Below are positions 9,991 to 56,576 of a DNA stretch of 63,823 bases, in pieces (the stretch's first letter is position 1; every line of letters begins with the position of its first letter). A model generated the notes under the pieces. The model saw nothing but the letters and a program-made list of their open reading frames with translations. It did no database searches and was not told where the DNA came from. A program made the position numbers and the translations under genes. The stretch is from the NCBI GenBank assembly GCA_965178125.1, contig OZ237777.1:124001-187823 (forward strand). Direction: 5' to 3'. This DNA comes from Bilabrum cf. latius (Eukaryota).

Positions 9991-10531
9991 TTCAACGAAT
10001 ACAGATCCGAGCCTCCGGGGCTGAGCCTCGCCTATACTTGATGCGAATCACTAGTCTCGTCGGGGCTCGCCCGGAAGCGAGACGCAGCGAGACAAACTAG
10101 GAATTTTGTCAGGAGCGTGCAATACAGTGTGACGCTCAAGACTTGTTCGTTCCGAGTCGGTGCCACGAATCTGTGGCACTTGCACTGTTTGATCGACGCC
10201 TTCTAAGTGCTCTCTTCGAGAAACTAAGACTCCAAGCAACACTGGCAGACACTTGAATTTGTCTCTCTAATTTGGCCGCTATGCAAGATTCAATTGCAGA
10301 TAGATTGAAATCACGGTAGCGGCCGCAGCAACGCGGCTCATTTACAGACAGCCAACCATGCCTGTCTGATTTTCTATCGCATAAGGTAATTGGTGAGCCT
10401 TAAAATCATGCCTAGCCTATTGGGTTGGTGAGGTTGAACAGAGACGGTTTATGCGTTTGTATTCAGTCGAGTGGAATGCGTAGCCCATTCTTGCAAAGAA
10501 GCACGATATCTCGCGTTTCGCTGTGCTTTGA

Positions 10532-11491
10532 TACTCTGACGCAGACAAAAAGCTAATATGCAATAAATTAGTGGTATTTCGAGCAAGTACTCCCTTCAGC
10601 GATGTTCGATACTCTACGCCGGAGTCTGCCAGACTGTTACAGGCCATTCCAAGCAGTCTTGCGAAGACACACGCCGGTGTGGCAGAACTTGATGTACACC
10701 TGGGTGGACTCGAGGCCTTCCAGATTCAGAGGGCAGTCGATGGGGCAGGCAGCGATGGTTTGAAGGGCCAATTTGGCGTGAGGGCTACTCGATGTCTTCG
10801 TGTATTCCAGATCGTCGCGTTCTACACAGGTATTGTGTTGCCTGCTGGGGCGACCAATCCTGCACGTGATCGATATGATATGAAGCTTCGCATTGGGCGG
10901 AAGGACTTTACGATTCGAGCCGATCTGGATGACCACGTAGGCAGGATTTAGGCTCCAGGTTAGCCGACGAAGCAGCTATCCTGCTTGGCAGCGATGATCA
11001 ATGGCGCAGTGAAAGGCTGTAGTGTTTGTAAGCAGAATTGTAGGTATATAACCTGCAGCGCAAATGTGCGTCTCTCCAGCAAGCGAACCGTGAGGCTGCC
11101 TCTGATTGCATGCCAGGTGACACGCTAGATCGAGAGGGGGGAGCAGCTCTGGGTGGACTATGGCAAGGGGTTCAAGCTGCAGCTGGACCCGGGTGTCAGC
11201 GATGTCCTCTCGCGTTCCGATCCCGCGGTGAGAGGCAAGTTCGGAGGGATGGCCAAGAGCCAAAGAGCAAGGTCCAGGTCCAAGGGCCTGCGTTGTGGAA
11301 GCGCGTGTTCGGATCGCGAGTTTAGGCCGAAGCGACACACGCAGAGGCTGGTGCTTGCCTCCCTCCCACGGGGTAGCGCCCCTGACCCTGGCCACACGCA
11401 CCTGCGGTCGCTCAGGGTAGGGGCGAAGCGCAGCAAGAGCAAGCCAGTCCGGCTAGGGAAGCGCCGACGAGTAGAGGCGCATGATCCATAA
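10532..11491 (+). CDS. SET-domain-like protein with basic C-terminal tail (5' end unresolved; possibly a pseudogene)
   Basis: ORFs 10571..10951 and 11153..11491 fuse through TAG at 10949, 10961 and 11126. Motifs: GQFGVRATR..IVAFYTG, LAAMING..QNC, TRQIERGEQLWVDYG. It ends in TAA at 11489. An upstream in-frame TGA at 10529 implies an intron or a lesion. Confidence 0.75.
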
Positions 11492-11545
11492 TGTAATTAC
11501 CAAACTCGTGAATTGTGTTTCTGCATAGATACCGCCCGTTAAAGT

Positions 11546-11978
11546 GTTATGCTCCTTTAGGTGCCAGTCAATGTGTAGCGGCTACAGTAACACTGTGCGG
11601 CAGTCTGTGCCGTGCCACTGCAGTCTGTGTATGTGCACGCAACTGAACCGATACCAGACGCCGTCTGGCAGACGGCCGTCAGGCGTGGCCCAGGTCCTCA
11701 CTCCTATCAAGCGCGAGTATACCTGACAAGTGCTAGAATTGTTCAAAACGCCCACCCACCACCCTCGGCGGGGGTGCCTTTGCCCCCCGTCATCCTTCAC
11801 TGGTGTGCAGCTCGCAGCTCGTGTTTTACTAGCACCCCACGAACGGCCAAGGAGGCCGACGTGGCAGGTGCGAGCTGCGAGGGCCGCTAGCCGGCGGCCC
11901 CTCACCAGCTCAAATCAAACTACTGAGGGTAGGTGGAGGTGGTTTGTCCACCGCCACTGAGTGCAATATGCACGGAAT
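11546..11978 (+). repeat. Left arm of a long-range inverted repeat (blocks 11546-11610 and 11852-11978)
   Basis: The two blocks are reverse complements of 20676-20740 (65 bp, about 3 mismatches) and 19529-19655 (127 bp). Confidence 0.9.
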
Positions 11979-18285: not shown

Positions 18286-19089
18286 TCATCCATCCTCCAT
18301 CGGCGCCTACTTATCACCTAGCCAGACATCTGCGATGCGGCACGCCTCGTCCATGCTGTCAGAACCAGTACCACGAGTACCACCGTGCCTCCACACCTCT
18401 GGCACGGCAGGTACTCCATTCTCGCGAGCTTGTGCGGCACCCAGCTTGTAACTCAGCACTGCGATGAGGTCCGCAGGGAGCACCTGTGCCCCCCCATCCT
18501 CTTCTTTGTCTTCATCCCCGTTGCTGTCCATGCCCTCCTGATGGGAGGTGTCATCATCAGCGGTAACGTTCTCTACAAGGGCATGGTCCAGCAGAGTCTA
18601 CCCGCTGCCAGCGGGGAGGGTTAACGCCGAGCTTACATCCGAAGCTCTTCTTGCTGTGGCCGCCATGCCCGAAATGCCTACTTCTGCCGCTTCCCTTGAC
18701 GATGCAGAGGTCTGCTTGCCTGTCGCAGCATGCGCTTGCGATGCTACATTTTTTTCTACCTTCAAACTACCCGTCCACCGGTTTTTCCTGCGTCTGGGTC
18801 CAGGCTGGAGTTCACCGTCGTCGCCAGAGGTCTGCTTGACTGTCACAGTAGGCTAATACGATGCTAATTCAGTTAGTTCTACGTCGAAACGGCGCGTCAT
18901 CTTGATTTTTCGGCCTAAGGGCTTATAGAGATCGCCTGATGTCTCGTCGCCGGATCCATCGGTCGAGATATACTGCGGTGAGTGGGTTGCTGCTATGGCA
19001 TAGGGGGCAAGCTGATGTTTCTAGCGATGGCCATTGTTCCATCCATTCTTGCCCACATGGTTCTCACATCTTCCGGGCCGGATCGAGGA
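18286..19089 (-). pseudogene. Hypothetical low-complexity reading frame, about 270 codons under TAG=Gln, probably decayed
   Basis: ORFs 18598..18846 and 18307..18531 and their flanks are in one frame separated only by TAG. No recognisable motif. Confidence 0.3.
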
Positions 19090-19528
19090 TCAGACCAATA
19101 ACCGGGGTCTGAGGAGCTGTCTTCTACATTCTGCCGGTTCTAATTGAGTCCAGGAACATGTACAGATTCATTCATGCTTCATGTGGCAGCATGGAAGAGC
19201 TTCACTAACCCAAATCCTCACCTATGTAGGATCTCCATATGCATGTTCCATATCGCCGTGGTTCCGCCGATAAATTCTGGAACGCTATTCTGTTTGTCAG
19301 AAGGAAAGCAATGTGGATGATCTCTGCCTGTCTATATGTCTGTTTGTCTGAATGTATAGTCTGTGTAAAACTGAATTAGATTCAACCACACATAACAAAT
19401 CGCAAAGATATAGCGTGCGCTTTTGAGTTGAGTCCACAAAATATCAGATCCCCCCCATATGGTATACCGTGCCAGTGGAATGTCTGCACCGTACAATCAA
19501 AACGAGCAGTCTCGCAAGCTTGCAATGG

Positions 19529-20740: not shown

Positions 20741-20798
20741 AATCGGAGCAGAAACGTTGCAGTTCCGGCGTACTCGCTCCCTGTTTCGTCGTCCTAGC

Positions 20799-22243
20799 AT
20801 GTCAAATCTGGCAATTTCGCAACGGGTCGCCAGCCTCCGATTGAAGGTCGTGGAGACTCAAAGCGTAGCGGGGGAAGTGGCTCTAACAATCAAAGGTTTA
20901 ACATCTCGCGTGAATGAACTGCAAACCGGACAAGAAACTGTTGCCCGAGCGATCGGCATCACACATCGAAGATCATCAGCTCGGCTTTCAAGCAGCGTGG
21001 CAAGCATGGCAAAACGGCATGTGGAGCACGGAGATATTGAAACGAAAATATCAATGCTGACTGCTCACGTCAAGAGGGCAAAAGTACGCCTCTCTGTTGC
21101 CAAGAAGAGCATCCAGGCTCTGGTTCCAAGGATCGAAAGCCTGTGTTCATCTCAAGGACTCCTGTTGCAGGGGTTTGGCCGGAAAGAGGCCGCCAGAGGC
21201 CAGGCTACCACTAAAACAGGTCGGCCACCGTAGGCCAGGAAGCAACCCGAAAGAGGCAGATACGAGGCAGCGCATGTGCCGAGGGAAAATTATGAGATCA
21301 AACTCTCCATCTAGTAGAGGTCCCTCCGTGCCACAAACATGAAGATTAGGTCGATCGAGGCCAATATCCAGGCCCTGGAGTAGCGCATCAGCGATTTTGA
21401 AGCGCAGTAGAAAATTGCTCAAGGGGTTGGCCTTACCATGTTCAGCTTAGCCTTGAGAACAGGTGCTCTCGGAGCAGGAGGCGTGAAGGGTCTCAAGCGT
21501 TCATCCTCTATGGAGGTCCGGGACCAGACCGCTGGGCCCAGCCTATCAGTTGCGGCAGCCGGGCAGCAGAGCGGTAAGACAAAGACATCTCGAGATAGTC
21601 GTGGCGTTGAGACGAAAGGGTCTGTGCGCAAGAGTGCCTCATCACTGACTGAAGGGTCAGTTAGCTAGGACACCACAGCGGCGGGTGCTGAGTCACTGGT
21701 CCGAAAGAAGAATGGATCCACTGACATCAGGCTTAGTGAGTCGCTTGTCCACCCATGTCTCGCACATTGCCAGCTTCTACCCGCGCGCTGCAACCTACCC
21801 CCCTTGTGCATCCTATCCACCTACCCCTTGTCCTCGAAGTGTATCCTGGAGCTCTGCAAGAGTTTCCAGTTACAGTGATGCTGAACGGCATCAGCCTGCC
21901 CTTCTACCGTCCCAGGGACGACATGCCTGCCCCTACCGAAGTTAAAACCAGACACGGAGGCACGTTCAACGAGTCTGCGGAGCTTGAGGTCAAGGGCCAC
22001 ACTGCACACATACCCTTCAGGGAACTGTATCTCGGGCAGAAGGGCGGAAGACGCTGCTTTGCCCTGTATGATGCAGTGCTCCACGCCAAACTACCGCCGG
22101 GCTGCCCGCGGGTCGAAGTGACCATTGATGGTGTTAGCCATTTAGCGATTTCCTGTAATCGGTGTGGGCTGACTAAGGGCAAGGCCGATGGCAAGGCCGA
22201 TGGCAAGGCCGATGGCAAGAGTGCTGGAAGCATTGCGACGTGA
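20799..22243 (+). CDS. Hypothetical coiled-coil protein, two exons (20799-21735, 21774-22243)
   Basis: ORFs 20757..21233 and 21438..21668 fuse through six TAG codons (21231, 21312, 21315, 21381, 21408, 21666). A GTGAGT...CAG intron at 21736-21773 joins them in phase to 21755..22243, which ends in TGA. GKAD repeats lie near the C-terminus. Confidence 0.65.
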
Positions 22244-23160: not shown

Positions 23161-26100
23161 ATGACCTAGACTACATAGACGGGCCAGACTGATCACCAGC
23201 GTGCCCCAATGCAACAGCAACTACCGGCTGCGGCTGCCATTGACACACCCCCGGGAGCAACAGTGACTGCTCCGGAACAACCAGGTCGAGGCATGGTTCC
23301 TCAGACATTGTTCGGACGGTTCACTAACATGATCGGAGGTGGACCTGCGATGCAGCCTGCAGAAACTCGGTAGTAGACGACGGAACCACCGCAACAGACT
23401 GCAGCACTACCGCCAGGGGCACCAGCAGCGACGCAAGGACTCGCCCTAACGCCAGCAGCGACGCAAGGACTCGCCCTAACGCGGGCAACACAGGTCGACT
23501 TCCACATCCTCTCGCCTAACAACATGGACAAGAGGGCAGGTGATATAGAGGGCACCTGGGGAGTCGACAGTGCGAGGCTCAACCGATTCAAGCAGGGGCA
23601 ACCAGTTGGAAAAGGGAACGCAGCCTCTATCCACATGACGGAGATCCCGCAGCGCACAAGACAAGCCAACGGATACTGCCTGATAGATTCACTCCAGGCA
23701 CTGGGGATCCACGTGGATTCGGAGTTCTTTAAGGCCATGGCACGCATGCAAGGACTGTACGCCCGCCTGTGCCTCCCACAGGAGATCACCCGGACCTCTT
23801 TCTAGGAGACCGAGATCTCCAAAGAATGCCTTGCGGAGGCCATCTGGATCATGGAGGACCACCTGGTTTTCCCAGACACGGTGAACGAGTGGATTACTGC
23901 CCTGCTACGAGTCCGTATGAATATGAATACAACGGATGACCTCGTTGCTGAGCGAGTGCCGGCGGGAACTCGCATCTGGAGGCAGGTCGGTGAGAATGCA
24001 GAGACGCACGGGAACAGGCTCATGGCTATCTCTGGAGGCAATAAGCGAGCCCTGATTAGGTTTTGTCTTGCCCTTCCTGTAGTGGCAGCTCTGTCAGTGT
24101 CGGTGTATGCGAGGAGGTCGGACATGGCCACGAGAGACTTCGATGCAGGGGCACACGCAAGAGAAGAAGCAGCGGCGCTGGTGGCCGCAGCCCAGCGCCG
24201 CACTAGCGACCCCTTCAAGGCCCAAGTAGCCTGGTATATCCAACAGGCGGTGGCTACCTACACTGCAGACGGAGTCTCGGTGGGAGAGCTACCTTGCTCG
24301 CTCTCCGTCACGCTCGCAGCAGAGATCACGAGGACGGCCATCATGAGCATCGCAATCCAAGGAGAGAACTTCTCGCTACATCGCCACCTGCCCAGTTCGA
24401 CTGAGACGATGGGATCAATCGGGGCGAGAGGATGCGTCAGGGTGGCAGGAGGGCACTACTCCGCAGTACGACTAGCCGATCTACCGCTGAGTATGAGAAT
24501 GGACTCGGGGCTACACGGTTTTTCATTTTCGTCCGGAAGCAAGTCCCTCCAGGAAACCCTGACGTCGATCCCACACAGTGTGGCCGAGTGCCTCTGGAGT
24601 CCCGGCGGCGGAGGAACTGCGCTTCTGACTACTCCGTACGATGCATTTGAACCACTCGTGGTAGGCACGGGTAACCTCTTCGGGCCGCCAGAGCACTTAG
24701 GCTGGCAGGGATGCGCGTAGCTCCCCCTCGCCGTTCTAGCTGGCCTAGACCCCAGCTCCACCATCATGCACACACTCCGCACCTATTTTGGCGAGGAAGG
24801 GGAAGGAATCCACGGGCTTAGCCTGCGAGGACTCACACTGTCAGTGATGGCCCTGGCACAGCAGCGAGGGGGTTCAGTGCGACTCCACCCAGCCGACAAA
24901 GAGGGGACCAGCCTTGCCAACTGGTGTGAGCGACTCAACTCGGACGCCACCGATGACCAAGCGATCCAGGGCACGATGAATATTGCCATCTCCCGCACCC
25001 ACTGTGAGGTCTTCATCCCTACAGGAATCAATCCGCCGGGTGGACACGGGTCCCGGAGGCACGCCTGCCTGGTGCTGCGACCTGAGCAACGGGAGGAGGA
25101 AGGAGATGCGGATGCCAGAGTTGTGCGTACGCTGTCAACGAGAGGGGAACTGAACGAGGAACCGGTCATGGTCCTATCAGTCCGCCCAGGAGACCAATGG
25201 GAGGACGGAGTGACCGGGGCGGAACTGCTTGGAGCTCTCCGGGTGATGCTTACGGATGAGCAGAGGACCGATAGGACCTGGATACCGGAGTGCTTCCCCT
25301 GGATCAATAACCGCAATGTGGTAGTGGGGGACCGAGAATCTGTGTGGTTAGTCGCCCCCGGGACAAGCACGGCACATCAGCCACGAGGCGTCCAAGGTAC
25401 TCGCGGGGGCTGGGATCAGATCAGGATCATGGACACGACCCCGCCCAAGCAGGTCAGGATTGCAACCAAAAATCTGGGACGCAAAGGGAACCTCGAAGCG
25501 ATGGAGGTTGCCCTTACGGAGACCAAGATGCCCGATGTGTTTGTTGGCACGGAGACACAGGATGCTAGAGGACGCTACGTCACTGACGTCCCGGACCTGT
25601 ACGCGATGGAGACGAGGGCAGGAAACGGAGCCCCACACGGGGTATGCGTCGCCGTCAAACGAGATTCAGGCCTCGTACTGAGACGGTGGGCAGACATGGG
25701 AGATGATGACCTGGACGCGCCGGACTGCCTCGTATGTGACGTCCTGCACCACGACCGACACATGCTGACGGTGATAGCCTGCTACAACCCACCGCAAGGG
25801 GCTGCCCTCGGGGCAGAGACAAGGGGCTCAGTATTGGGCAAGGCTTTCGTGGTCGATCCCCAGCTGACCCTTGGACAGCGACGGAGTCAAGGACCGGCAG
25901 GCAATTTCACCAGGGACCGACTTGTGGTTACCGGTGACTTCAACCCGACGTAGGCCCGGGACCAAGAGGGAGCTGGTCAGATGGACTGGTATCTGGAGAA
26001 CGACATGGGTATGATCGACATGTACCGAGCACCTGCAGGGGGCGGGCCTACGCACAGAGGAGGCAACACACTGGATGCCATCTGCATCTCCACTTCTGCG

Positions 26101-29100
26101 CAGCTGCAGCTAGTGTCCAGTGAAGTGGCTCAAGAGCCAGGCACATATTCAGACCACACGGGGGTGATTGCAGACCTGCTGGTCACAGTCCCAGAAGTGG
26201 AGGACCCGGCAACGCGAGCAACTGCAGTCCCAGCAACAACGGAGCAGGACGATGACGCCCCCTTCAGGGCAGCGTACTCACGGGTGTCCGACATGCATGT
26301 GCAGCAAGAACGCCTGGTTTGGGACTATTACGTCAAGGAATTCGGGTAGGCTACAAGTGCAGTCCGCGACATCACTCATTGTGTGCTCGACGCAATTCGC
26401 GACCTCAAAAGCTCGACGGGAACCTCGGCTGACCGAGAGGCTGCAGGGCAAGCGGTTACGCAGGCCGTGTCCTCCGTCAAACTGCTTCTGCAAGGATGTT
26501 TCACGGCAGCAGCCGAGACTGTGACAGGCCGACAAATGGCAAACACCGGCCAGGCCGGGCACGTGGAAGCGTCACGCAAGCGCCACCGCAGGACCTGGGC
26601 GGCACGGACGAGATGGGCTGAAACGTGGGGAAAAGCCCATGCCAGCCTCAAGGCCCTTATCGCGGGACCAACCACGGAACAAGCTCTTTCAGAGGCCAGA
26701 ACATGCTTGGCTGCACATCGCCGAGCCAGCCTGCGCCTCGAAGGGCGACAGCGGGGGCTAGATGGACGGATGCAGGCAACACTCTGGGGGAGCACAGAGG
26801 TGAACCAGTAGGCCCATGAGGGACAGGAGTACTGGACGATGCTCCTTGCCAACCTGGACCATGATCGACGGGCTGTCTTCGAGACCACCGAGCGAGGGGC
26901 ACGCAGGACGGGCCACGCACTGCGGAACATGCTGGGAACAGCAAGTCCGAGGGAAGCCCACCGATAGATCGCTGATGCAATCTCTAGAAGGCAACGAGCT
27001 GCACCAGGACTGGAACCAATCACGAACCTAGGCGGAGAGGTGCTTACGGCCGTCGAGGATATCCTAGAGGCACACGCACAGCAGCTCTCTCACGCAGGTG
27101 GGAATGGAAGTGCGGATGTGGGCGGATTTATGGCCAGGATTGCGCCGCACATGCCCAGGGCAGCGACACCGCTCAACCTATTCTGCAGGTCGAACGCAGA
27201 GGTGGATCAAGCACTGGACAAGCTCAAGCACAACAAAGCTGTGGGACCTGATGGGATCAGGGCGGAATTGCTGACCAAATGCTAGCCATGCTCTGAGGAG
27301 GACGGGTGTCTGCGGCGAAGTGACGCTCTGTTGGACCTCCTCAGGGCCATTTATAATCTCACACTCTTCTCGGGGATTCAGCCTGAGGCCTTTCAGGAGG
27401 GGTTCATGCGGCCGGTCTCCAAGCGCAAGCAGGGCACAGGAGTCACCGGAGTCGACGAATTCAGGCCAATATGCTGGACCTCGGCCCTCTCGAAGGTCGT
27501 GAGCACCATCGCAAACCAGAAGGTCATGTGGTACTGCGAAAACCACGGACTCTTCGGCCAGGATTAGGCCGGATTTCGCATCGGCAAGAACTGCCAGCAG
27601 GCCTACTCAGCGGTGATGGAATGGATTACCCAACGAAGGGGTGCTGGAGGTTTTCTGGTATTCTTTGACATCAAAGGGGCATTTGACAGTTGCAAGTGGA
27701 ACATCATCGAGGCCATCATGACGGAGCAAGGATGGGGACGCCAGACGGTCCGCTTTCTCATGGCCCGCATGCAGGTGGCCATCCGCGTTCGAGACCCACT
27801 CACCAGGAGGACTATTGAAAACATCGTGCATTGCGGAGCCCACGAATTGATTTGCAGCCTCACTTTAATGCAGGTCGCTTCAATTTGCGCGGCTTCGCTT
27901 GTACGGCCACGCCTGCTTGAGCCCTGTCTCCGCCACTGGCAGGAGCACCGGCACCGGCAGTTTCACTCTATATCCTAAGGCTGAGCCCAAAATCAATAAT
28001 CTTAATATGACCGCGCTGATTGACCATCATATTCTGAGGCTTGAGGTCTCGGTGGAGTACCCCTGCCTCGTGACATGCCCCGATCGCACACACCAGCTGC
28101 GCCGCAACGATCTGGAGTGGCTCTGGGTCTCTACCAGAGTGCAGAAGACGGCGGGCACCCCCTAGGGCGAGATTCTGTCTCCCACCATCTTCCTGGTACT
28201 GATGGGGGTTCTCCTGGAAACGCTGCGGAAAGAGAGGCTCCAGCACGGGCACCATCAAAGGATCGTGACCGACACCGGACGATACGTTGAATGTGGACAA
28301 GTCGGGTACGCAGACGACTACGTGGCACTGACGTCGAACTGGAACGAAGCAGTGGCGGTCATGAAGCTAGTCAAGAGCCTGTTTGCACTTGCGGGCATGT
28401 AGCTGGGAATCAAGCCCCTGACAGCATCGGGCCAGGGAACCAAGACAGCGATCATGGCCTTTGGCTACGCTCGGGACTCAATTCCTGGGGACATGCCAGA
28501 GGGCGTCGCATGCAGAGCAGCGGACGCGGGAGAGACGGATGGGGAGTGGACCATCCCACTTGCCTCATCCTACCTGTACCTCGGTCTACTCATTTCGACC
28601 CAACCGGTACGGATCAGCCCAGATGAAGTAGCTGGGCTGACGCAGGCGAGAGACATCTGGGTAATTGATATGGCACCCCACGTACGCAGGAGGATTGCGA
28701 TGGCGTACCGGGCGGCCAGGGACATCACACGAGCGGCGGTGAACGGCAACTGGGCGGTCTCCCTGCACGCCCAGCTGCTCCATGCAGGAGCAATCACGAG
28801 TGCATTCTACGGAGCAGAGGCAGCGGCATGTGCAACAGGATGGGACACCTTGTCAGGATTAGGATATGGTTCCCAAGTTTTCTATGGGATGGAACTGAAC
28901 CTGGAAGTCCTCAAGATGCTGGACAAATTCCTGCTGGATACGCGCTGGATGATTGTCAGCGGATCGACACAGGTAAGGCCCTTCACCATGGGCGGTCGAT
29001 ACGTGCCAAACCTCGCGATGGACACTGAGCTACTGACGGCATCGGCAGCAGGGCGTGTTGCTATGGGCCTGCTGGACCTGATCGAGTGTCCCTCGAAGAA

Positions 29101-30196
29101 GGGCCTTGATGTTGCGGCCAGGTTCATCCACCAGGGCCGATTCCTGCAGGGACCACCAGTACAGACAGGCCCACTCGGGGCCGCGCTGGCACTGGGATTC
29201 AGGATCAAGATGGCAGGGTGGACCCAACGGATCGATGACGCGAAGGACTGGCTGGGATGCCAGGAGACTGCAAAAAAAGTCACAAAGTGGAGGAAATCCA
29301 AATCCGGAGCTGCTGACCGATCGTTCACAAGCCTGAGCCTGGGATGCTCGCACGATCCGGCACTGTCGGATTGGGACCGGGAGAGAGCTGCGCTTGGAGT
29401 GGTCATGCTTAACCGGTACGCAACGAAGGGACGGTATGCCTTCGGACCAGGAGCCATGCCAACAGCAGCGGTGGTGCAGGAATACGGCCACCAAGGAAGA
29501 CGAATTCTGCGCATCCGAGCTGGACAATACCCGCAACAGGGCACGCCCAACCTTCAAGTGATGGGCACCGCGGTAGAGCAGATGGAGCGGGCCGAGCATG
29601 ACCATCATGCCGGAACGAGACCGTGGCAACCCGATGATGCAGATCAGAATAGAGGGAGGTCCCCTGCCTCTCTCCGGAAAGCATGGGCGAAGACAGCTCT
29701 CGCTCAGGACCCTTGGGACGAGAAGCTGGAGCGCACCAGCAGGGCCAAGCCAATCGTCGAAGACGCACTCACTCGGATAGAGCGTACGATTGCACGGTCA
29801 TCGGAACGTACAGCTGTCAAGGAGCTGGCCAACCGAGTGGTGCAGGTGATCAGGAACCAGCTGCGCTAGCAGGAGTAGCTGACGTGCAGGCAGTGGATGC
29901 GAGGCGATGCGGCGGCTGCTCTTGCCGCCACGGCCACGCAAGAGCTGATAGCGGCAACCAATGCGAACGCTCGGCTACAGCGACGGATGTTTAAGCCCCA
30001 CGGCTTGCTAAGGGACATAGAGAGGCAATGGGCCAAAGGCATGAGCGCGTGCATGCTAGCCTCTCTGAAGGACCGTGAGACGCAGAGACGGTCATGGAGG
30101 AGGAAATGGTGGGTCTCGGCAGGGGACCCTGATGTGGGACTGGACCGCGCTTTGTGCCGGGCACATGCTCCGCACCTGTATGCTTTCTCCCTGTGA
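23161..30196 (+). CDS. LINE polyprotein: putative OTU-like region, APE endonuclease and reverse transcriptase; interrupted by a ~290-bp insert
   Basis: About 16 in-frame TAG and no TAA/TGA outside the insert. [61 protein letters not shown], [TAG][17 protein letters not shown][TAG]GEILSP, GYADD, YLYLG. Terminal stop is TGA at 30194. Confidence 0.93.
27826..28117 (-). pseudogene. Ser/Thr protein kinase fragment (subdomains VI-VII) lying antisense inside the LINE RT
   Basis: The minus strand reads [44 protein letters not shown]. The RT frame shifts across it. Boundaries are approximate. Confidence 0.88.
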
Positions 30197-31929: not shown

Positions 31930-34900
31930 TCACAGGTGGGACACGAGGACCTTCCCCTTGGCGACCAGGCCCTGGGCAAGCTCCTTAACCGAACTGTGCC
32001 CCGCACTGGATGCGTACGGCCGTACACCGTACTTCCGGCAGAGAGCCAGTAGGCGATCTTTGTTCGTCGTCCCAAGCAGTTCTAGCTGCCCCTAGGTGGC
32101 AAGCGGCGAAGATGCACCACTGCTAACAACGCCGGGGCCCTGCTGCGGCCGGGGTACAGGCTGCGCCTGCCGGTCTGATCTGCTGTAGATGACAAGTTGT
32201 GCACCCTCACGCTCCCATTCATGCAGGCCGGGAGGCTTGCTTCGCTTCATCAGATGTATATCGTCGAAGCAGAACCACGTGTCGCGGGCTGCAACCTTTT
32301 CCACGGCTGGAAGCACGACTCGCCGACTGTGCTCAAGCTGTACTTGCAAGGCTTTCGAGGCCATCGGCCTCGTGCCCAGCTTCGAACAAAGGATGCCGAA
32401 GGAGCGATTTAAAGCCTACAACCCGCGCCCCGCTCCACCCGTGGCACCCTTGTGGTAGCTTACGAAGTGGCCGCAGGACGCGTTTGTTCCTCTATGCACA
32501 GCCACGCCCACCAGATTGTACGTGCGGGCCACGTCGACGGGCGAGCTGGCGTGCTTCTGGCGGTCTGGTGAGTCTACACGAGGCCGCTTCGCTGCTGGCT
32601 CAGACGTGTCCGCGGACGGCTTGTGGAGCTCTTCTTGAAGCCAGCGGAGGAGCTGCGTATGGTTGGCTTCAGTGAGCTAGGGCCCGATCGTGCCCGTCTT
32701 GGTGTCCACCAGGCCCACCACCCATGGCTTGGCAGGCTCGGTCTTGGTACCCACTTTTGCGCTGACCAGCTGCCCCTGACGGCTTCGCGACGGCTGCAAC
32801 CATACTCGCGCACATCCTCCCATTTCATTTAGGACGTCATCTTGCATCAGGGCTCCGCGAAGGAACTCAACGGTGGATCGTTCCCCTGGGGGCAGCACAG
32901 CAGCTATGAGCCTTAGGCCTTGCTCCTTAGCTTGGTGGCAGGCATCCGTGAAACTGCATTGCAGCAACATCGGTGTCAGACCTCCCAAGTCAATATCAGT
33001 ACCCTAGCGTCCTCCGCCCGCTTGCTTCTTGGATCTTCTGTGTCTCACGGCCTTCCTGCGTGATCTACCCTTGCCCTTCGCATGCTTTTTCCTTGTTGCG
33101 TCCCAGTCCGAGTCCGAGTCCGAGTCCGAGTCCTTGTTACTCTTGGACGACACTTCTAGAAGCAAGGTCCTCGGGTCGATGTATCCAACCTGCTACCAGG
33201 CCTGTGCTTCTCCCTGAATTACACGATCCTCAGCGCCTGTGCCTACCCCCGCGCCTGCGCCCTCGCTTGCGGCTGCCTACGCACTGAGTCTGGCCTGCTC
33301 GCGCTCGGCAATGATTGGCGGCAGAGCCGGGCCAAAGGCGATGTCCAATGCTGACTTGCTATCGGAGGGCACGGGTCGCCTGGGGTCCAGAGGCTGGCAG
33401 AAGAGAGCGCCACAGTTCCATACCGACAGGCGTTTGATGTATTCGTGCAAATCACGCATTGCTTCCTCCGTCGATAATTGCTTGCCAGGGCCTGCACTAG
33501 CTGCTGTTGGTGGCTACGTGATGCTGCTGGGCTGAATGCGGGGAATTTCTCCGAGAAGTTTCTCGACCTCGGCAACTTCATCCCGTAGCCCAGCAAGTTT
33601 CTCCGTTTTCGAGCGACGGTCCAGTACAGCTTTCTAATTGCGGCTTTCGGCGGGAGCCCCAGGCTTACGCGTACTGCTAGCAGCGCTCGTGCGGCTGGCA
33701 GAAGGATTGTCGCGACCATTCAAAGTGACGCCATTGCTGTCATCGCTTGCGATCAAATTGGAGTCGGAGGCGCCATCGCTCTTATTGCTCGCCTTCAAAC
33801 CGGAGACGGGGGCGTGATCCGGTTCCTTGAGCAGGCGCGTGATAAGCCAACCCAGGTGGGCATCATTACCCTTCGACGCAGCATCCGGATACGACACGGC
33901 CTCTGCGACTAGCCGTGAGGCCTGCAGGGGTGCTGGCACATAAGCCTGGCAGACGGACCCTTGGAGGCTATGACGCTACAAATCTATTCTCTTGCTCAGA
34001 CTGACGGGAGTGGTAGTCTTGAGCTTCACGAACCCACTGGGAGTGTGCACCTGCCGTGTACGAATCAGATGATACAGCATCAGAGGTGGCAGCTGCCACG
34101 TCATTAGGCTGTGCAAGGCGGACGATCGGCGCCCGCATTGGCTGCAGCACGAATCTCCTACCGCGGCGGGCTCGAAGGGCATCTCTACGCATGACTGCAT
34201 CGTTGGATTCATGCCATTCTGGACCCGGTAGTGCGATGTCCGGCAGTTGCCATGAAGAGATAACAACGAGTTTGAAACGCCCCAGTTGACCTCTGCGCTC
34301 TTGATCTGCCGGACTTCAGCCTTCTTCAGTCTATGCTTGGCGCTTCGGACGGCATGAACGATGGCATCGGTCGATGGCATGCGTTTGCTCAGCTTTTGGA
34401 TGGGACTTGTGGCCTAACGATAAGCCTGCACTGCCTGTTTGCCGTCATACAAAGCCGAGTTTCTTTCGTGCTCGGCAAAGTCCTCTGCTTCGGCTTGCAA
34501 TGGGCACCTAACTTCTTGTAGCGACTCCCCTTCGCTCACTCGATAGCCACAATCTGGATATGGGCAGCATTTTTCTTTCACTTGGCCCACTTGAAACAAG
34601 CTTCGGAGGCTACCAGTACATCGGCTGGCGTACATCAGCGCCTTTGTACGGAGCAATCCGTGAGTTCGCTCTGGCAGCTCAGTCGAGGCCGCCCAGCTGT
34701 CTACGTGTTCGGGGCATATGCCAGCGCAGAGCAAAGTATCACGCACATCAGCTGGAGTGACTGGATCAGGTTCCCCCAGCGTGCGATTGAAGAACTTTGA
34801 TAGCTGCGGTGCACCTGCTGGAATACTTAGGCCGGCCACCCACCTCAATGATTCGAATGACGAGACCTCTACTTTTTGCCGCGCGGCGAGTTCGCTCAGC

Positions 34901-35159
34901 TAGCTCGCAAATGTTGGCCCAAGCCGACCGAGGAGCTAGCGCAAAATCGGGGTGAAGCCTCGGTCAAGATTCTTGGCCTCATCGTCAAGGCAATCGATCA
35001 GTTGATTTGTAAACTCACTTGCGTCCTAATGCGATCTATCCTCATTCCCAAAATGCGGATACGATTTACCGATACAGGCCCGAAGTCCTCTTATTGCTTC
35101 ATCTGCCACGTGACGGAGGGCATGACACGCAGCAGAGAGGTGCCTCGTCACGTCACCTG

Positions 35160-35209
<50 letters not shown>

Positions 35210-35282
35210 GTGCTGCTGCTGGTGCTGCTGCTGCTGGTGCTGCTGCTGGTGCTGCTGCTGCTGGTGCTGCTGCTGGTGCTGG

Positions 35283-35321
<39 letters not shown>

Positions 35322-35976
35322 CGGCGAAAGGAGCCAAGTCTGCCGTACTGCTGGTGATTGGCTCTGTGGTCGATTTTACCTGCAGCGCCTGCAGTCGCAT
35401 ATGGACACACGCCAATACGAACATGTGCCTGCAAGCGCCCTATGTCGGGACACCACCTTCGGGTTTCATGGCCTCTTTTTCGAGGCTAATTGCGTGGCTC
35501 GCTAAAGAACTGACGAGACTATGGCTAACCACGGCTAGTGAATCGAGAAACATTTGCATCACCACGGGTCGCAGCCTTGTTCCGCGATTTTGCTAGCTTT
35601 TGAGCCGTTCCAGCTCATTCTGGAATGCTCTCCTCGCATCGTCCTCTGTTGGGCAGTCTGCCAGTAGCACGACACCATCTCTGACCGCAGCCTCTAGCTC
35701 TGAACGTTTCCAAGTTCTAGCATACGGCATAAGTAAGAGTACATGATCAATGAATTGTTGCTACCCGAGTAGGACCTACATGCTTGAATTTGAATAGCAA
35801 AAATTATTATATCGTCGAAATCCAATGCTCTATTGCTCGGATTTTACCGGATTAAACCATGGCCTGGGTTCAGAGCCTGACGCCAAAGCCATGACGGTAA
35901 TTCTGTCCGTGATTTTGTCAGCGCGATTTGTATCTGTGTATGCCAAATAATGATTTAAGCAAGCCACTGGTGACAT
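31930..35976 (-). CDS. Ubiquitin-specific protease (USP, peptidase C19), about 1350 aa, with large insertions including a UAS-like segment
   Basis: One frame with about 18 TAG and no TAA/TGA until TGA at 31930. Cys box GFRRYNNFCYSNSSM[TAG]VL, H[TAG]DASEF, CSQC..LPPLMLYHLIR..RIDL, His box YNLVGVAVHRGTNASCGHFVSY, WFCFDD, AQLVIYSR. The true start may lie further upstream. Confidence 0.9.
35159..35320. repeat. (GCT)n/(GCTGGT) microsatellite encoding a poly-Ser/Thr tract in the USP
   Basis: Directly visible; it keeps the minus-strand USP frame. Confidence 0.95.
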
Positions 35977-36024
35977 TCATATATACACGTTACAGAAACA
36001 TCTGTATTTAGAACGTGGCTCTAG

Positions 36025-37608
36025 GCGGCATGCGCAACAGGATGGGACTGCTTGTCAGGAGTAGGACAAGGTACTGGCATCTTCTACGGGATGAAGCTAA
36101 ACCTAGAAGTCCTCAGGATGCTGGACAAATTCCTGCTGGACATGCGCTGGATGATTGCCAGCGGATCGACGCAGGTAAGGCCATTCTCCATGGGAGGCCG
36201 ATATGTGCCAAGCCTTGCGATGAACACCGAGCTGCTCACTGCAACAGCAGCGGGACGAGTTGCAGTGAGCCTGCTAGATCTGATCGAGTGCCCCCTGAAA
36301 AAGGGCCTTGACGTAGCAGCCAGGTACATGTACCAGGGCCGACACCTGCAGGGACCACCGCTACAGACGGGCCCCCTCGGGGCCGCCCTGGCACTGGGAT
36401 ACAGGATCAAAAAGCCTGGGCGGATTCTACATTCTGACGACGCGAAGGACTGGCTGGGATATCAAGAGACTGCGAAAAGAGTCACGAAATGGAGGCGATC
36501 CACGTCCGGAGCTGCGGAACGGGCATTCACAAGCCTTAGCCTGGGATGCTCGCACGATCCAGGACTGTCAGACCAAGACCGGGAGCGCGCCGCGTGCGGA
36601 GTGGTGATGTTTAACCGATTTGCAACGAAAGGACGGAATGCTTTCGGACCAGGAGCCATGGTGACTACAGCTGCAATGCAGGAGTACGGTCATCAAGGAA
36701 GACGAATCCTGCGCATCCGAGCTGGACAATACCCACAGCAGGGAACGCCCAACCTCCAGGTATCGAGCACCGCGGTAGAGCAGATGGAGCGGGCTGAGCA
36801 TGAGCGTCACGCCGAAACGAAGCCGTGGCAACCTGATGCCGGGGATCAGAATAGAGGGAGGTCGCCCGCCTCTCTTCGGAAGGCATGGGCGAAGACAGCT
36901 CTCGCCCTGGATCCCTGGGACGAGAAGCTGGAACACACCAACAGGGCCAAGCCAATCGTCGAAGGCGCGCTCATTCGGATAGAGCGCACGATTGCACGGT
37001 CCTCGGAACGTACAGCTGTCAAGGTGCTGGCCAACCAAGTGGTGCAGGTGCTCAGAAACCAGCTGCGCCAGCTGGAGCAACTGACATGCAGGCAGTGGAT
37101 GCGTGGTGATGCGGCGGCTGCCTTAGCCGCCACGGCCACGCAGGAGCTGATAGCGGCAACCAATGCCAACGCCCGACTACAGCGACGGATTTTCAAGCCC
37201 CACGGCTTGCTAAAGGATATAGAGCGGCAATGGGCCAAAGGCATGAGCGCGTGCATGCTCGCCTCTCTGAAGGATCGTGAGACGCAGAGACGGTCATGGA
37301 GGAGGAAATGGTGGGTCTCGACCGGGGACCCCGATGTGGGACTGGACCGCGCCTTGTGCCGGGCACACGCTCCGCACCTGTATGCTTTCTCCCTGTGAAG
37401 GCAACAGGCTGGGGGCCTGTGGGGGACCACACTGATGGCAAAGAATGGGGACTCGGCGGCATAGGTTGAGAACGGGGGGCCTTTGGCCTGAAAGGGTCGG
37501 GGGTCTTGTAGTCCTTTGTTTTAGGGCTCCTCTGGATCTAGGTGATCACCCAAACCCCCTCGGGGGCGACGGTGCATCTGGGTGTTTATGGAATCTTTAC
37601 CCAACAAT
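36025..37608 (+). mobile_element. 5'-truncated second copy of LINE family A (448-aa C-terminal ORF 36052..37398)
   Basis: Collinear with about 28823-30405. Differences are largely synonymous and the TGA stop is the same. Confidence 0.95.
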
Positions 37609-50364: not shown

Positions 50365-53300
50365 TCAAAAGTTTATGAAGGAATATTTAACGTGGCGTGC
50401 CTGCATGCAGGCCGGATTTCTTTGTCTTACAACGTATGCCTTCTGGCTCATCGCTTCTGCTTCCTCGCATGATTCTATACAAGCGTCGCTGCAACGATAC
50501 CATTGTCTTCGCTTTAGCAGGTATGCGACGTAGTGGCCGGAGCCGACCTCTGCGCCTTCATGGACAACGAAGGAGCGAAGTTTGTACTTCACCTTATCGC
50601 CGCTTGTGGACTCAGGCGCAGATGATGAGCCACCTGCGTCACCTGATGACGCCATCGGCAAAACAAGCAACTCACTAAAATCAACGGGTGCTTCATTTTT
50701 GTGGTAGACGGGGGCAGTCTGAGAAGAAGCAGAAGATGCAGCACCACTACGTCGACCCGAGCTGATCACGGGGAATGCTGCAGAATCAGCTTGAAAGCGA
50801 AGCAAATGTAGGACAAGGACATCCGGATGTCCGCGTATTTGTGATTGTGTACACGCCGATCCTGCTGACTTCCTGCTAGCGAACCTGCACGATTCACACT
50901 TATACTCAACCTACTCCGGCTCGAAATATTGGTCGAGTAGTCGCTGCACGGTCAATCTGCTTTCACTACTAGACGGCAGCTACAGCGGCAACATAGGGAT
51001 TCTATTCGATTTTTCCGAGCAGCAGTTGCACGCAAAGTGCTGGCACCGTGTTTCAATGCACAGTTCGAACGTAACCACTGGAGCTACCGCGTGCAGAAAA
51101 TGATTAAGTACCTCCGTGCAGTCCTGCTAGTGTGTGTTGCCTTTAAACTACAGCCGGTCCCGGATTGATGGCAGAGCAGGGATACTTGACGAAACAAGGA
51201 ATGGAACGCACTTGGACAATGCCACTACGCGTAGAAGAGCAGCAGCGCGATCTATGAGAGGTTGGTCCAACGCCTGATCCTATGCAGCAGCGGCACTTGA
51301 GCTCGAAGATGCTGATTGTTGACTCGATGCATGGGTTGACATCGTAGGGATGGACAACATCGTAGTAGCACTAGCACCGGCAACCGGTCCAGCACTACGA
51401 ATAGAAGGACGCCAATCTGTAGCAGCAGGATCAGAAGGAGGACCGGCACCAGCTCCGGAAGCCGGCATAGCTTGATCACGATCTTCATGCTACAATGCAT
51501 CACGGATGCAGGTCACGAGCACCTTACTGCACTGTAAAAGTGCCTATAGAGGCGCGTTAAGGTAGCAAGTGTTGCCGTCGTTTTGGATGCCACGAGTCAC
51601 AGCGCCATCAACAGCATGCTCGTACCCTTCGTCGATGCGTTCAACTAACGATCGCACGGAATTGATGAAACGTGGACGTCTACCAGGGCCAGTCCGCAGT
51701 GACTTTACTAAACTTCCTGTCACATCCATTGGCTTGTCGTATTCATCAACACGCTCTTCTATGAATAGCGCACTCGAAGTTGCCGACGAAGGCGCCATAT
51801 TGGTGCAAACCAGCGGCCAATCCTCCAGTCGGATTGGCCCTTGAGGCTCCGCCGCCGTTGTTTGCTGCGTATCCAATCGTTGCGCTGTGCCGATCCGCGA
51901 GTCATCAAGCAGATTGAGACGTTTGGCAGACTAATACGCAGCCATCAGGAGAGGGCGACTTTTCCAAAAAGCAGGCAAGCTACCGAGTTTAAACGAGCCA
52001 TCAGTCAATTCGTCTGTCACAAACGACTGCATCAGCTAGCTGGCGCCGGCAGTAACAAATGCGGCCTTGGTTGCCTCGCTCCAGTGGCCCGTAGTTGTGA
52101 AAGGTGACACATCAAATAGCTTCCGTTTGATGGCATAAGCCAGCATTGCCGCCCTCACCAAACCAACCTTTGGCTTGTTGTACTTACGAAATAGATCCGC
52201 TTGGTCGCGAAACTTCAGGGCGAGCTTGTCAACGAGTTCGTGTGCGCGATAATCAACTTGACCGAGATTGTGTTCTATGAAACCATCCCGATCTGCTGTG
52301 ACCGTGGAGTCTAGACCAATATCCGTTGCATGCAAGGGTGGGTGGCTACTTGATGACTCCTACAGCGCTGCCAGTCCCTCGGCTACCTGCATTACATGAT
52401 CTGCAAACTATGTTCCCGCATCACGAGCAGCATCGCGCGATTCGCGAACAGCATGCCAGCTTCGGACCTCAATCAAGAGCCGTTTCCGCTTCGCATCGCT
52501 AGGATATAGTCGTTTTGTAGCCCACTGTGTAGGAATAGAACTCGTATCAGTCTTTTCGGGTTGCAGTGGAGCCGGACACAATTGAACCGATGCATCAGAA
52601 GCCCAGCTATCGATCACCGCTTCGTTGCTTTTGAAGTTCAATTTCATCAGAGCGGCCAGCCTCGACAAATTTGGAGCTGCTATCAGAGGCGTGGTCGACC
52701 GACGACCAGATATGATGGGGCCTGCATCCTCCTGCTAGTGTGCTGCAGAAGCGCTCGATATCCGCCCACAGTCGTACTGGATCAACGATCCAAACACGAT
52801 GTTTGCAACATCAGTACTATCGCCGATTTTGAGACAGAAAAAGTCGTCAGATGAAGGCGTTATTGGAATGACCTATGCACCGATGGATCTCTCTTTGTGA
52901 ATCAATGCTAGGGCAGCGATCCCTACACCACGTCGAGATTCGTGCGACATAGACAGCTCTCTCCCGATGTCAAGCTAATTGGCGGATCCAACAAGACAAG
53001 AGGCCGTGTTTGGAATCACTACAGCACCGCACTTCTGGAGAACGCGCTCTATCCCAATGGCTATCTAGTCCCTGCTATAGCTAGCAAGCAACAGACGATA
53101 AATTGCGCAGGATAGACTAGGCACTGCTGTGTCTACCTGTCGGCGAGCCCCGAGGCCAGCCGGAGTTTTCAGACGCTTGCTGATCTCGCACAATGTCCAT
53201 AATCCAGACTCAATGCTCAGTGCAGCCTGCATTGATGAAAGACGAATAAGCTACACTCCGGTCAGGGCATAACAGGGAAACTTCCTAACGATGGTCATCA

Positions 53301-56085: not shown

Positions 56086-56576
56086 AAGGGTCTAGAGTTG
56101 TTTGAATTGAACGTCACCCAAGGAGTTCAATGAATCTGTTTCTATAGCCTTCAACAAGTCTCTCGCTTTACCCTGCGTTGTAAAGACTGAAAATATCGTG
56201 AGACAATGTTGCCGGGATCTGTGTAGTACGGGTATACGGAGAATGACTCACGGCCCCAATGAATTTTGAACGGAATAAACCCAAGCACAACCTTCTCATC
56301 CGTTTGCTGATGGTCCACTCTGGTAAAAATCCCGATTCAGTCTGCATTGTACCAGAGGATAAGAATGTTTGCCGAAAAATTGAGCTAATTTCAATACAGT
56401 TCGGAGTGCTGAGCACTCAAAAAAAGTGCTCTCTCTATGAGTACATCTGAATTGCCACTGCAAGTGCACGCAACATTGATCCGAGCCGAGCACGCCAGAC
56501 CACTCGTGCCACTCTTACATAAGGGTAGAGGAACAACGTGAGCATTATAATGACAGAACACCAATCAAGTTATTCT

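What the first reader, a model, noticed from the sequence alone, without database searches (positions are those of the whole stretch)
10532..11491. UAA and UAG are decoupled: TAA remains a stop codon
Seen: across both USP genes and the LINE ORF (more than 5000 codons, roughly 65-70 TAG) I found no internal TAA, although CAA is common. The SET ORF reads through three TAG and then ends at TAA 11489; the USPs, LINE and coiled-coil gene end in TGA. Known: most nuclear reassignments change UAA and UAG together (many ciliates, hexamitid diplomonads, ulvophytes). UAG-only cases are rare, for example Iotanema spirale and some phyllopharyngean ciliates. Inference: eRF1 should recognise UAA and UGA but not UAG, with a CUA but no UUA tRNA-Gln. 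Support for TAA as a terminator rests on few gene ends in this window.
Basis: partly seen in the sequence, partly recalled or inferred. Interest (0 to 1): 0.85.

Follow-up and report, generated by a model that had tools for sequence, protein, structure and literature searches.

The report
TAG codes glutamine; TAA still stops
In this DNA from an unidentified microbial eukaryote the stop codon TAG is used as an ordinary glutamine codon, while its twin TAA never occurs inside genes and closes one gene, a split of the two codons' meanings known from only a few protists.

Summary
In 8 ORF segments (7003 codons: two USP genes, a broken LINE and a second LINE fragment, a coiled-coil ORF, and two RNA-supported spliced genes) there are 82 in-frame TAG, 0 TAA and 0 TGA. 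Off-frame counts are TAA 41/51 and TGA 157/163. A position-specific composition model on 6 of these segments (6392 codons) expects 82 TAG (74 seen), 56 TAA (0 seen) and 47 TGA (0 seen).

TAG sits at conserved glutamines: the USP Cys box in both USPs, the QQD box, and the RT 'PQG' motif. So TAG = Gln and TAA is not a sense codon; the two are decoupled.

TAA as a terminator still rests on one gene, the SET-like ORF, but that case is now stronger. An RNA-like contig shows the gene is spliced (152-nt GTGAG..GCAG intron) and stops 3 nt after the TAA. A 37%-identical homologue (E 4.7e-35) ends within one residue of the same point. Six other ORF ends are TGA.

No tRNA gene or eRF1 lies in the window and no genome is held, so the mechanism is inferred. 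The kind is known (Iotanema, Hartmannula, Trochilia); the organism is unidentified.

The parts
10281..10392 (+). SET-like gene, coding part of exon 1 (ATG 10281; TAG codon at 10317)
   Evidence: RNA-like contig X5 record 11 covers 10194-10391 and 10544-11494. The frame runs through the junction from ATG 10281, with an upstream in-frame TGA at 10254.
10393..10544 (+). Intron of the SET-like gene, 152 nt, GTGAG...GCAG
   Evidence: Joint 10391>10544 skips 152 nt, ends GT..AG with cut +1, depth 34.5 in X5. All X5 depth in the 10006-10672 bin is accounted for by this contig, so the intron has no cover (my arithmetic, table 2).
10545..11488 (+). SET-like gene, exon 2 coding part (TAG codons at 10949, 10961, 11126)
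   Evidence: Pfam SET E 0.013, 16.3 bits, below the 22.4 cut-off, but covering profile 2-105 of 105. One homologue, P0005, E 4.7e-35, 37% identity over residues 8-270. A profile of the two against EHMT1 SET gives E 0.013.
11489..11491 (+). TAA closing the SET-like ORF (352 codons)
   Evidence: The RNA-like contig ends at 11494 while the DNA contig of X1 goes on to 11595. The homologue P0005 ends one residue later in a global alignment anchored on a shared KRRR motif. The next in-frame stop, if TAA were read through, is TAA 11540.
50365..56247 (-). USP2: 1960-codon ORF, 33 TAG, 0 TAA, ends TGA 50365-50367
   Evidence: Pfam UCH E 2.1e-25 at aa 1552-1939. Seven TAG lie between the Cys box and the His box. 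TAG sits at the Cys-box Gln (NAPLq against USP36 NATIQ; Q in 3 of 4 homologues) and in the QQD box.
31930..35976 (-). USP1: 1348-codon ORF from ATG, 18 TAG, 0 TAA, ends TGA 31930-31932
   Evidence: Pfam UCH E 8.4e-15. TAG at the Cys-box Gln (SSMq against USP25 AVIQ) and in SHqDASEF against QQQDVSEF. Counts.
23161..30196 (+). LINE copy: endonuclease/RT ORF in two frames, 16 TAG, ends TGA 30194-30196. The RT is interrupted at about 27800-28125, and TAA 27976 lies in the break.
   Evidence: Pfam RVT_1 positions 6-97 in frame a and 111-184 in frame b. TAG at GTPqG of the RT. No plausible intron joins the frames.
35974..37398 (+). Second LINE 3' fragment, 84.5% aa identity to the first, same TGA end (37396-37398)
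   Evidence: Codon alignment of 466 codons: TAG<->CAG, TAG<->CAA, TAG<->GCA. The 3' flanks are still alike.
18286..19326 (-). 'Gene 4': spliced, highly covered orphan gene, 259 codons, 4 TAG, 0 TAA, ends TGA 18286-18288
   Evidence: X5 record 13 (depth 282) with joints 18972>19068 (95 nt) and 19130>19222 (91 nt), CT..AC on +. Both introns read GTGAG..GCAG on the minus strand. Counts.
20757..21878 (+). Coiled-coil-like ORF, 6 TAG, 0 TAA, ends TGA 21876-21878 (end not verified)
   Evidence: No significant Pfam family. The last ~45 residues look non-coding, so an unseen intron is possible (my reading).

Best explanation
The window comes from the nuclear genome of a GC-rich (57%) eukaryote with introns and many transposons. 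Its cytoplasmic translation reads UAG as glutamine and keeps UAA and UGA as stops, which is the assignment written in NCBI table 15.

Shown here: TAG is a frequent, unselected-against sense codon placed at conserved glutamines. TAA and TGA are absent from reading frames. UGA closes most ORFs and UAA closes one transcribed, spliced, conserved gene.

Inferred, following Panek et al. 2017: a tRNA-Gln with anticodon CUA, one base away from CUG, decodes UAG. It cannot pair with UAA, so UAA stays free for eRF1. The eRF1 has probably lost or weakened recognition of G at the third position, as in the T32G change of the GTS motif in Iotanema. No UUA-anticodon tRNA-Gln should exist.
For: (1) Reading TAG as sense opens ORFs of 1961, 1621, 1534... 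codons against 816 under the standard code. Reading TAA as sense adds nothing.
(2) In 7003 codons of 8 ORF segments, in-frame TAG is 82 (off-frame 97/69), TAA is 0 (41/51) and TGA is 0 (157/163).
(3) A position-specific composition model on 6 of the 8 segments (6392 codons) gives TAG observed 74 / expected 82, TAA 0 / 55.8, TGA 0 / 47.1. If TAA:CAA followed TAG:CAG, about 58 TAA would be expected.
(4) TAG lies at conserved Gln: the Cys box of USP2 (Q in 3 of 4 homologues), the Cys box and QQD box of USP1, the QQD box of USP2 and the RT PQG motif. Of 3 TAG sites in the LINE paralogue comparison, 2 pair with CAG/CAA.
(5) The catalytic Cys and His of the USPs are separated by 7 and 15 TAG, so TAG must be read through for a functional enzyme.
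(6) RNA-like contigs show splicing of TAG-containing genes.
(7) For TAA as a stop: it closes the 352-codon SET-like ORF; the RNA-like contig ends 3 nt later while DNA goes on; the only homologue ends within one residue, after a shared KRRR motif.
(8) The mechanism is that proposed for Iotanema (PMC5304391 section 9).
Against: Only 1 of 7 ORF ends is TAA. The two LINE ends are one family, and the coiled-coil end is unverified.

The C-terminal match to P0005 lies in a basic, low-complexity tail, and a global alignment tends to bring ends together.

Contigs cannot prove an RNA 3' end. No poly(A) was seen, and X5 has cover again somewhere in 11495-12006, which may be a repeat.

The ORFs were picked as TAA/TGA-free, so the zeros are partly circular.

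The genes sampled are fast-evolving USPs, transposons and orphans, not housekeeping genes.

The three TAG of SET exon 2 align with P, R and F in the homologue (variable loops). One LINE TAG pairs with GCA. One USP homologue has Ala at the Cys-box Gln.

No tRNA gene and no eRF1 could be examined.
Confidence: 0.75

Rival explanations
1. TAG is glutamine, but TAA is an avoided or effectively unassigned codon and UGA is the only working terminator. On this view the TAA at the end of the SET-like ORF is incidental, for example because the true end lies in an unseen downstream exon or the copy is decaying.
For: Six of 7 ORF ends are TGA. In every published UAG-only case UAA is the main stop: 104 of 119 in Iotanema (PMC5304391 section 7) and 87-98% in the phyllopharyngeans (PMC11687900 section 10). 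That is unlike here. Contig ends are not proof of RNA ends.
Against: The SET-like gene is transcribed, spliced and conserved. Its homologue ends within one residue of the TAA. The RNA-like contig reads through the TAA unspliced and stops 3 nt later. The sequence after the TAA (GTAATT) does not fit the GTGAG donors seen in 4 of 4 introns. A codon with no tRNA that eRF1 ancestrally recognises is by default a stop.
Confidence: 0.12
2. TAG has a dual, context-dependent meaning: sense inside genes and stop at some gene ends, as UAA has in Blastocrithidia. TAA and TGA are stops as well.
For: This cannot be excluded from ORFs defined by reading TAG through. Only 7 gene ends are available.
Against: In-frame TAG is as frequent as off-frame TAG (82 against 97/69), which argues against any selection against it. 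In USP2 no TAG lies between the end of the UCH domain and the TGA. USP1 reads through a TAG 54 codons before its TGA into a tail that looks like a folded helical motif (my reading).
Confidence: 0.08
3. Both TAA and TAG encode glutamine (the common TAR->Gln code of many ciliates, hexamitins, oxymonads and ulvophytes), and TAA is missing here only through composition or sampling.
For: This is by far the most common nuclar variant (PMC5304391 abstract; PMC2984419 passages). TGA closes 6 of 7 ORFs, as in TAR->Gln organisms.
Against: There are 0 TAA in 7003 codons against 46-58 expected. CAA is common (128 against 180 CAG), so A-ending codons are not avoided. TAA closes the SET-like ORF at the homologue's C-terminus.
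Confidence: 0.03
4. There is no code change. The TAG-rich frames are decayed pseudogenes or chance open frames in GC-rich DNA.
For: GC-rich DNA gives many spurious ORFs. The window holds broken elements, namely the LINE and the HECT/SPRY copy.
Against: Decay would scatter TAA and TGA as well as TAG. Here there are 82 TAG against 0 and 0. TAG falls on conserved Gln. TAG-containing genes are spliced in RNA-like contigs.
Confidence: 0.01

Closest known systems
Iotanema spirale (Fornicata) nuclear code: UAG = Gln, UAA and UGA stops (Panek et al. 2017, PMC5304391; abstract and sections 7 and 9 read)
   Same: The codon assignments are the same: in-frame UAG at conserved Gln and no in-frame UAA or UGA. 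The inferred mechanism is also the same: tRNA-Gln(CUA) plus an eRF1 that no longer binds UAG.
   Different: In Iotanema UAA ends 104 of 119 examined genes and UGA ends 15. Here TGA ends 6 of 7 ORFs. Iotanema has 204 UAG in 126 genes, whereas here TAG is 1.2% of codons (82 of 7003). These samples differ in kind (conserved, expressed genes there; USPs, transposons and orphans here), so identity of the organism is unlikely but not excluded. Per section 9 of that paper, no Iotanema genome was available at that time.
Phyllopharyngean ciliates Hartmannula sinica and Trochilia petrani: UAG = Gln (McGowan et al. 2024, PMC11687900; abstract and section 10 read)
   Same: Only UAG is reassigned, to Gln, and it is widely used: 18.5% and 31.8% of Gln codons there, 21% here.
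   Different: In those ciliates UAA is the stop in about 87-92% of genes. Ciliate macronuclear genomes are AT-rich with tiny introns (recalled). This window is 57% GC, has 91-152-nt GTGAG..CAG introns and carries LINE and tyrosine-recombinase elements.
TAR -> Gln code (NCBI table 6: many ciliates, hexamitin diplomonads, oxymonads, Dasycladales/Cladophorales/Trentepohliales)
   Same: TAG encodes Gln and TGA is the usual terminator.
   Different: There TAA is a Gln codon too. Here TAA is absent from 7003 codons and closes one gene.
UAG-only changes to other residues: Rhizaria sp. exLh and TARA phyllopharyngeans (Leu), Scotinosphaera (Ser; PMC8271138 passages read)
   Same: UAG is decoupled from UAA, which stays a stop.
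   Different: Here the residue is Gln. TAG sits at invariant Gln of the USP Cys box and QQD box and of the RT PQG motif, not at Leu or Ser positions.

Membership tests
UAG->Gln-only nuclear code (table 15 type; Iotanema, Hartmannula, Trochilia) | In-frame UAG inside homology-supported coding sequence | tested here: met
   82 TAG in 7003 codons. Seven and 15 TAG lie between the catalytic Cys and His of the two USPs.
UAG->Gln-only nuclear code (table 15 type; Iotanema, Hartmannula, Trochilia) | UAG aligned to conserved glutamine | tested here: met
   Five motif positions: two Cys-box Gln, two QQD-box Gln and the RT PQG. Two of 3 paralogue sites pair with CAG/CAA. The numbers are small and no phylogeny-aware test was run. 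That these motif Gln are invariant is partly recalled (PROSITE USP pattern, RT motif).
UAG->Gln-only nuclear code (table 15 type; Iotanema, Hartmannula, Trochilia) | No in-frame UAA (or UGA) | tested here: met
   0 of 7003 codons for each, against expectations of 46-58 (TAA) and 47-160 (TGA).
UAG->Gln-only nuclear code (table 15 type; Iotanema, Hartmannula, Trochilia) | UAA used as a bona fide terminator at ends defined by homology or poly(A) | tested here: inconclusive
   One case only, the SET-like gene. The homologue's C-terminus is within 1 residue and the RNA-like contig ends 3 nt after it. No poly(A) was seen.
UAG->Gln-only nuclear code (table 15 type; Iotanema, Hartmannula, Trochilia) | UAG never marks a gene end | tested here: inconclusive
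   None of 7 ORF ends needs TAG, but the ORFs were built by reading TAG through.
UAG->Gln-only nuclear code (table 15 type; Iotanema, Hartmannula, Trochilia) | tRNA-Gln(CUA) present and tRNA(UUA) absent | not testable with these tools
   No tRNA gene in the window (ARAGORN; Rfam). No genome is held.
UAG->Gln-only nuclear code (table 15 type; Iotanema, Hartmannula, Trochilia) | eRF1 N-domain altered at the UAG-contacting motifs (GTS, NIKS, YxCxxxF) | not testable with these tools
   No eRF1 gene among the Pfam-scanned ORFs of the window. No genome is held.
TAR->Gln code (table 6) | TAA in frame at Gln positions | tested here: not met
   0 TAA in 7003 codons while CAA = 128.
Codes without dedicated stops (Condylostoma, Blastocrithidia, Amoebophrya) | All three stop codons occur in frame | tested here: not met
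   TGA and TAA are absent in frame.
SET-domain methyltransferase (for the ORF of the finding) | Pfam SET above the gathering score | tested here: not met
   16.3 bits (window) and 18.3 bits (homologue P0005) against a cut-off of 22.4, though both cover profile 2-105 of 105. The profile against EHMT1 SET gives E 0.013. It is SET-like, not a proven member.

The most novel reading that the evidence does not exclude
This is an undescribed lineage, neither a ciliate nor Iotanema, that independently reassigned only UAG to glutamine in a GC-rich genome with introns and many transposons, where UGA rather than UAA is the main terminator. Because DNA of the organism exists as an assembly, it would allow the first direct look at the tRNA-Gln(CUA) genes and the eRF1 of a non-ciliate with this code.
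Probability: 0.55. Interest if true: 0.65.

Novelty: new member of a known kind. Interest (0 to 1): 0.55.

Why it matters
UAA and UAG almost always change meaning together. Panek et al. counted at least 13 coordinated cases before the first decoupled ones were found in 2017 (PMC5304391 abstract). Each new decoupled case tests whether eRF1 and tRNA wobble really allow the two codons to be separated.

In all published UAG-only cases that I read, UAA is the dominant stop. Here UGA dominates, in a GC-rich genome. That composition would bear on the 'codon capture versus ambiguous intermediate' debate.

In practice, any gene calling on this organism with the standard code, or with table 6, will be wrong. 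TAG must be read as Gln while TAA is kept as a stop.

Tried and rejected
**Resources that were not available or held nothing**
- Whole genome: none held.
- tRNA genes in the window: 0 by ARAGORN. Rfam gathering scan: 0 matches.
- Earlier findings of the scan: nothing for this genome, its relatives or by words.

**Attempts to get more DNA of the organism**
- A 24-base word present three times in the window found nothing in metagenome contigs, genome contigs or viral contigs.
- The USP2 domain found no relative in metagenome contigs: 217 pattern matches, none confirmed.

**Sequencing runs**
- No RNA holder listed. Six holders in 2 studies; X5 and X6 are labelled 'RNA?' by guess.
- In one search the intron 10393-10544 and the stretch upstream of 10194 have no X5 cover. 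The SET contig stops at 11494. Cover somewhere in 11495-12006 may come from a repeat at about 11596-11884.
- I could lay only window 1-20000, so neither USP was checked for splicing or ends.

**Protein searches**
- Protein atlas: a recoded protein was not accepted. A TAG-free LINE piece gave no usable hit.
- The word-based homologue search found nothing for SET exon 2 or for gene 4, and only 4 distant hits for the USP2 domain.
- The AlphaFold single-sequence model of SET exon 2 had mean pLDDT 31.8, so it was not used for fold search.
- LINE RT against PDB: no hit.

**Ideas considered and dropped**
- A chlorophyte TGTAA poly(A) signal, suggested by TAATGTAA at the SET end. No TGTAA lies within 400 nt downstream of 5 of 6 other stops.
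- An intron joining the two LINE frames. No GTGAG-type candidate was found.
- The HECT C-terminus as a homology-fixed stop. The window copy is cut off near 2557-2659 by a repeat.
- The spliced contig 14486-16768. It has no long ORF.
- Taxon assignment. It was not achieved.

Full report
**What the window is.** It is 63,823 bases at 57% G+C and clearly eukaryotic nuclear DNA. Pfam finds two ubiquitin-specific proteases (UCH, E 2.1e-25 and 8.4e-15), a LINE reverse transcriptase split over two frames, HECT and SPRY pieces, and a tyrosine-recombinase ORF. Contigs of two RNA-like public runs (X5, X6: very uneven depth; X1 is DNA with flat depth near 25) skip four short stretches. Three of them begin GTGAG and end GCAG and the fourth ends CACAG, each on the strand of its transcript: 10393-10544 (+), 15658-15806 (+), 18973-19067 (-) and 19131-19221 (-). 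The organism therefore has spliceosomal introns of 91-152 nt. No whole genome is held. The window has no tRNA gene. A repeat word of the window occurs in none of the three contig collections.

**The observation.** Under the standard code the longest stop-to-stop frame is 816 codons. Reading TAG as sense gives 1961, 1621, 1534, 1465, 1437, 1349... codons. Reading TAA as sense instead gives no gain (816), and adding TAA to TAG barely helps. The counts per ORF are:
- USP2 (50365-56247, minus): 33 TAG, 0 TAA, 41 CAA, 35 CAG, ends TGA.
- USP1 (31930-35976, minus): 18 TAG, 0 TAA, 23 CAA, 31 CAG, ends TGA.
- The LINE: 16 TAG, ends TGA at 30194. A second 3' fragment ends at the same TGA.

I added two genes whose structure is given by the RNA-like contigs, the SET-like gene and an orphan 'gene 4' (17993-19326, minus; 259 codons, 4 TAG, ends TGA). 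Over all 8 ORF segments (7003 codons) the in-frame counts are TAG 82, TAA 0 and TGA 0. The two other frames of the same DNA hold TAG 97/69, TAA 41/51 and TGA 157/163. A model using only the base composition at each codon position, run on 6 of the 8 segments (6392 codons; SET and gene 4 left out), expects 82 TAG (74 seen), 55.8 TAA (0 seen) and 47.1 TGA (0 seen). TAG therefore behaves as an unremarkable sense codon, and TAA behaves exactly like TGA. The zeros are partly by construction, because the frames were delimited by TAA/TGA. Frames of 1300-1960 codons that cover whole catalytic domains cannot arise that way by chance (Poisson P about 1e-20 from the off-frame rate).

**Which residue.** TAG falls on glutamines that are fixed in the families:
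- The Gln that ends the USP Cys box in USP2 (NAPLq against USP36 NATIQ; Q in 3 of 4 database homologues and A in one).
- The same Gln in USP1 (SSMq against USP25 AVIQ).
- The QQD box of USP1 (SHqDASEF against QQQDVSEF) and of USP2 (THqQDCTEV).
- The PQG motif of the reverse transcriptase (GTPqG).

That these positions are near-invariant Gln is in part recalled (PROSITE USP signature, RT motif). In the 466-codon alignment of the two LINE copies, the TAG sites pair with CAG, CAA and GCA. Leu and Ser, the other known UAG reassignments, do not fit. The sample is small, and the three TAG of SET exon 2 lie in variable loops, aligned with P, R and F in the homologue. TAG makes up 82 of 390 (21%) of TAG+CAG+CAA codons.

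**TAA as a terminator.** Seven ORF ends can be read:
- TGA six times: USP1, USP2, the two LINE copies (one family), gene 4, and the coiled-coil ORF, whose end is unverified.
- TAA once: the SET-like gene.

The TAA that closes the first LINE frame (27976) is not a terminator. It lies where the RT domain is interrupted (about 27800-28125) and resumes in another frame.

X5 record 11 (1149 nt, no mismatches) covers 10194-10391 and 10544-11494 and skips a 152-nt GT..AG intron. The frame continues through the junction to ATG 10281, giving 352 codons with a fourth TAG at 10317. The protein is real. A full HMMER scan of 1.84 billion representatives finds one relative, P0005 (E 4.7e-35; 37% identity over 263 residues). 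Both proteins match Pfam SET over the whole profile but below the cut-off (16.3 and 18.3 bits against 22.4). In the global alignment both proteins end after a shared KRRR motif, six and seven residues further on, so the ends differ by one residue. The RNA-like contig stops at 11494, 3 nt after the TAA, whereas the DNA contig of X1 runs on to 11595. Read through, the frame would add 16 unrelated residues up to another TAA at 11540.

Each of these points is weak alone. The tail is low-complexity, global alignment pulls ends together, and a contig end is not an RNA end. Together they make TAA the likely functional stop of this gene.

**Mechanism (inferred).** The only anticodon that reads UAG but not UAA is CUA, one change away from the CUG of a normal tRNA-Gln. 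A UUA anticodon would read both codons. eRF1 must then ignore UAG while still binding UAA and UGA. In Iotanema the Thr of the GTS motif, which bonds to the G of UAG, is replaced by Gly (PMC5304391 section 9; PMC9161772 passage). None of this can be checked in the window.

**Comparison with what is known.** I read the following:
- PMC5304391: abstract, sections 7 and 9.
- PMC11687900: abstract, section 10.
- Passages of PMC9161772, PMC2984419 and PMC8271138.
- Four search listings.

UAG = Gln with UAA retained is described for Iotanema spirale, Hartmannula sinica and Trochilia petrani. UAG = Leu is described for a rhizarian and three uncultured ciliates, and UAG = Ser for Scotinosphaera. In all of those UAA is reported as a stop, and where stop use was tabulated it is the main one: 104 of 119 in Iotanema, and 87-98% in the reassigned phyllopharyngeans. 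Here TGA predominates. The window's composition, introns and transposons do not look ciliate. Identity with Iotanema is unlikely on stop usage and TAG density, but the gene samples are not comparable, so I cannot exclude it. My four searches listed no GC-rich UAG-only lineage. Supplements were not opened.

**Verdict.** It is a known kind of code in what is probably a new host lineage.

Noticed in passing
window 2461-6430 (minus): A HECT/SPRY gene is spread over several frames, with an in-frame TGA at 5555-5557. The RNA-like runs hold instead a roughly 95%-identical copy with frameshifting indels relative to the window (X5 record 10, X6 record 14). X1 DNA holds both forms. The window copy loses the rest of the HECT domain near 2557-2659, where a repeat begins. 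It is probably a pseudogene paralogue.
   Followed up: partly
window 27800-28125: The LINE's reverse-transcriptase domain is interrupted by about 325 nt between Pfam positions 97 and 111 and resumes in another frame. No GTGAG-type intron fits, so this is probably an insertion or decay in this copy.
   Followed up: partly
window 14486-16768 (+): A spliced RNA-like contig (intron 15658-15806, GTGAG..CACAG) lies in a 42% G+C island and has no long ORF in any frame. It ends at 16768, just before an AATAAA (16769-16774). It may be a non-coding transcript.
   Followed up: partly
window 56627-57154 (+), with repeats at 40118-40737, 56870-57256, 58849-59345, 58477-58700 and 61387-61610: A tyrosine-recombinase ORF (Pfam Phage_integrase, E 1.7e-8) and 97-99% identical repeat pieces suggest recently active DIRS- or Crypton-like elements. 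A 603-codon ORF (58947-60758, minus; 5 TAG) in this region ends in TAA, but its end lies in a repeat and it has no Pfam hit.
   Followed up: no
window 29-738; 41233-42900; 45817-50200: There are three tandem arrays: 39-nt units, 9/12-nt CAG-rich units, and 83-nt units (about 51 copies). The 83-nt array is open in three frames and gives a spurious DUF3649 hit.
   Followed up: no
window 11489-11496: The TAA stop of the SET-like gene is followed at once by TGTAA, and the RNA-like contig ends inside it (11494). The 3' UTR may be only a few bases long, whereas gene 4 has at least 293 nt after its TGA.
   Followed up: partly
window 9700-9900 and 17835-17890: Contigs of all three runs join 9758-9760 to 17835-17850 (skips of about 8.08 kb) and back. 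This points to a shared repeat or a structural variant between these two places.
   Followed up: no
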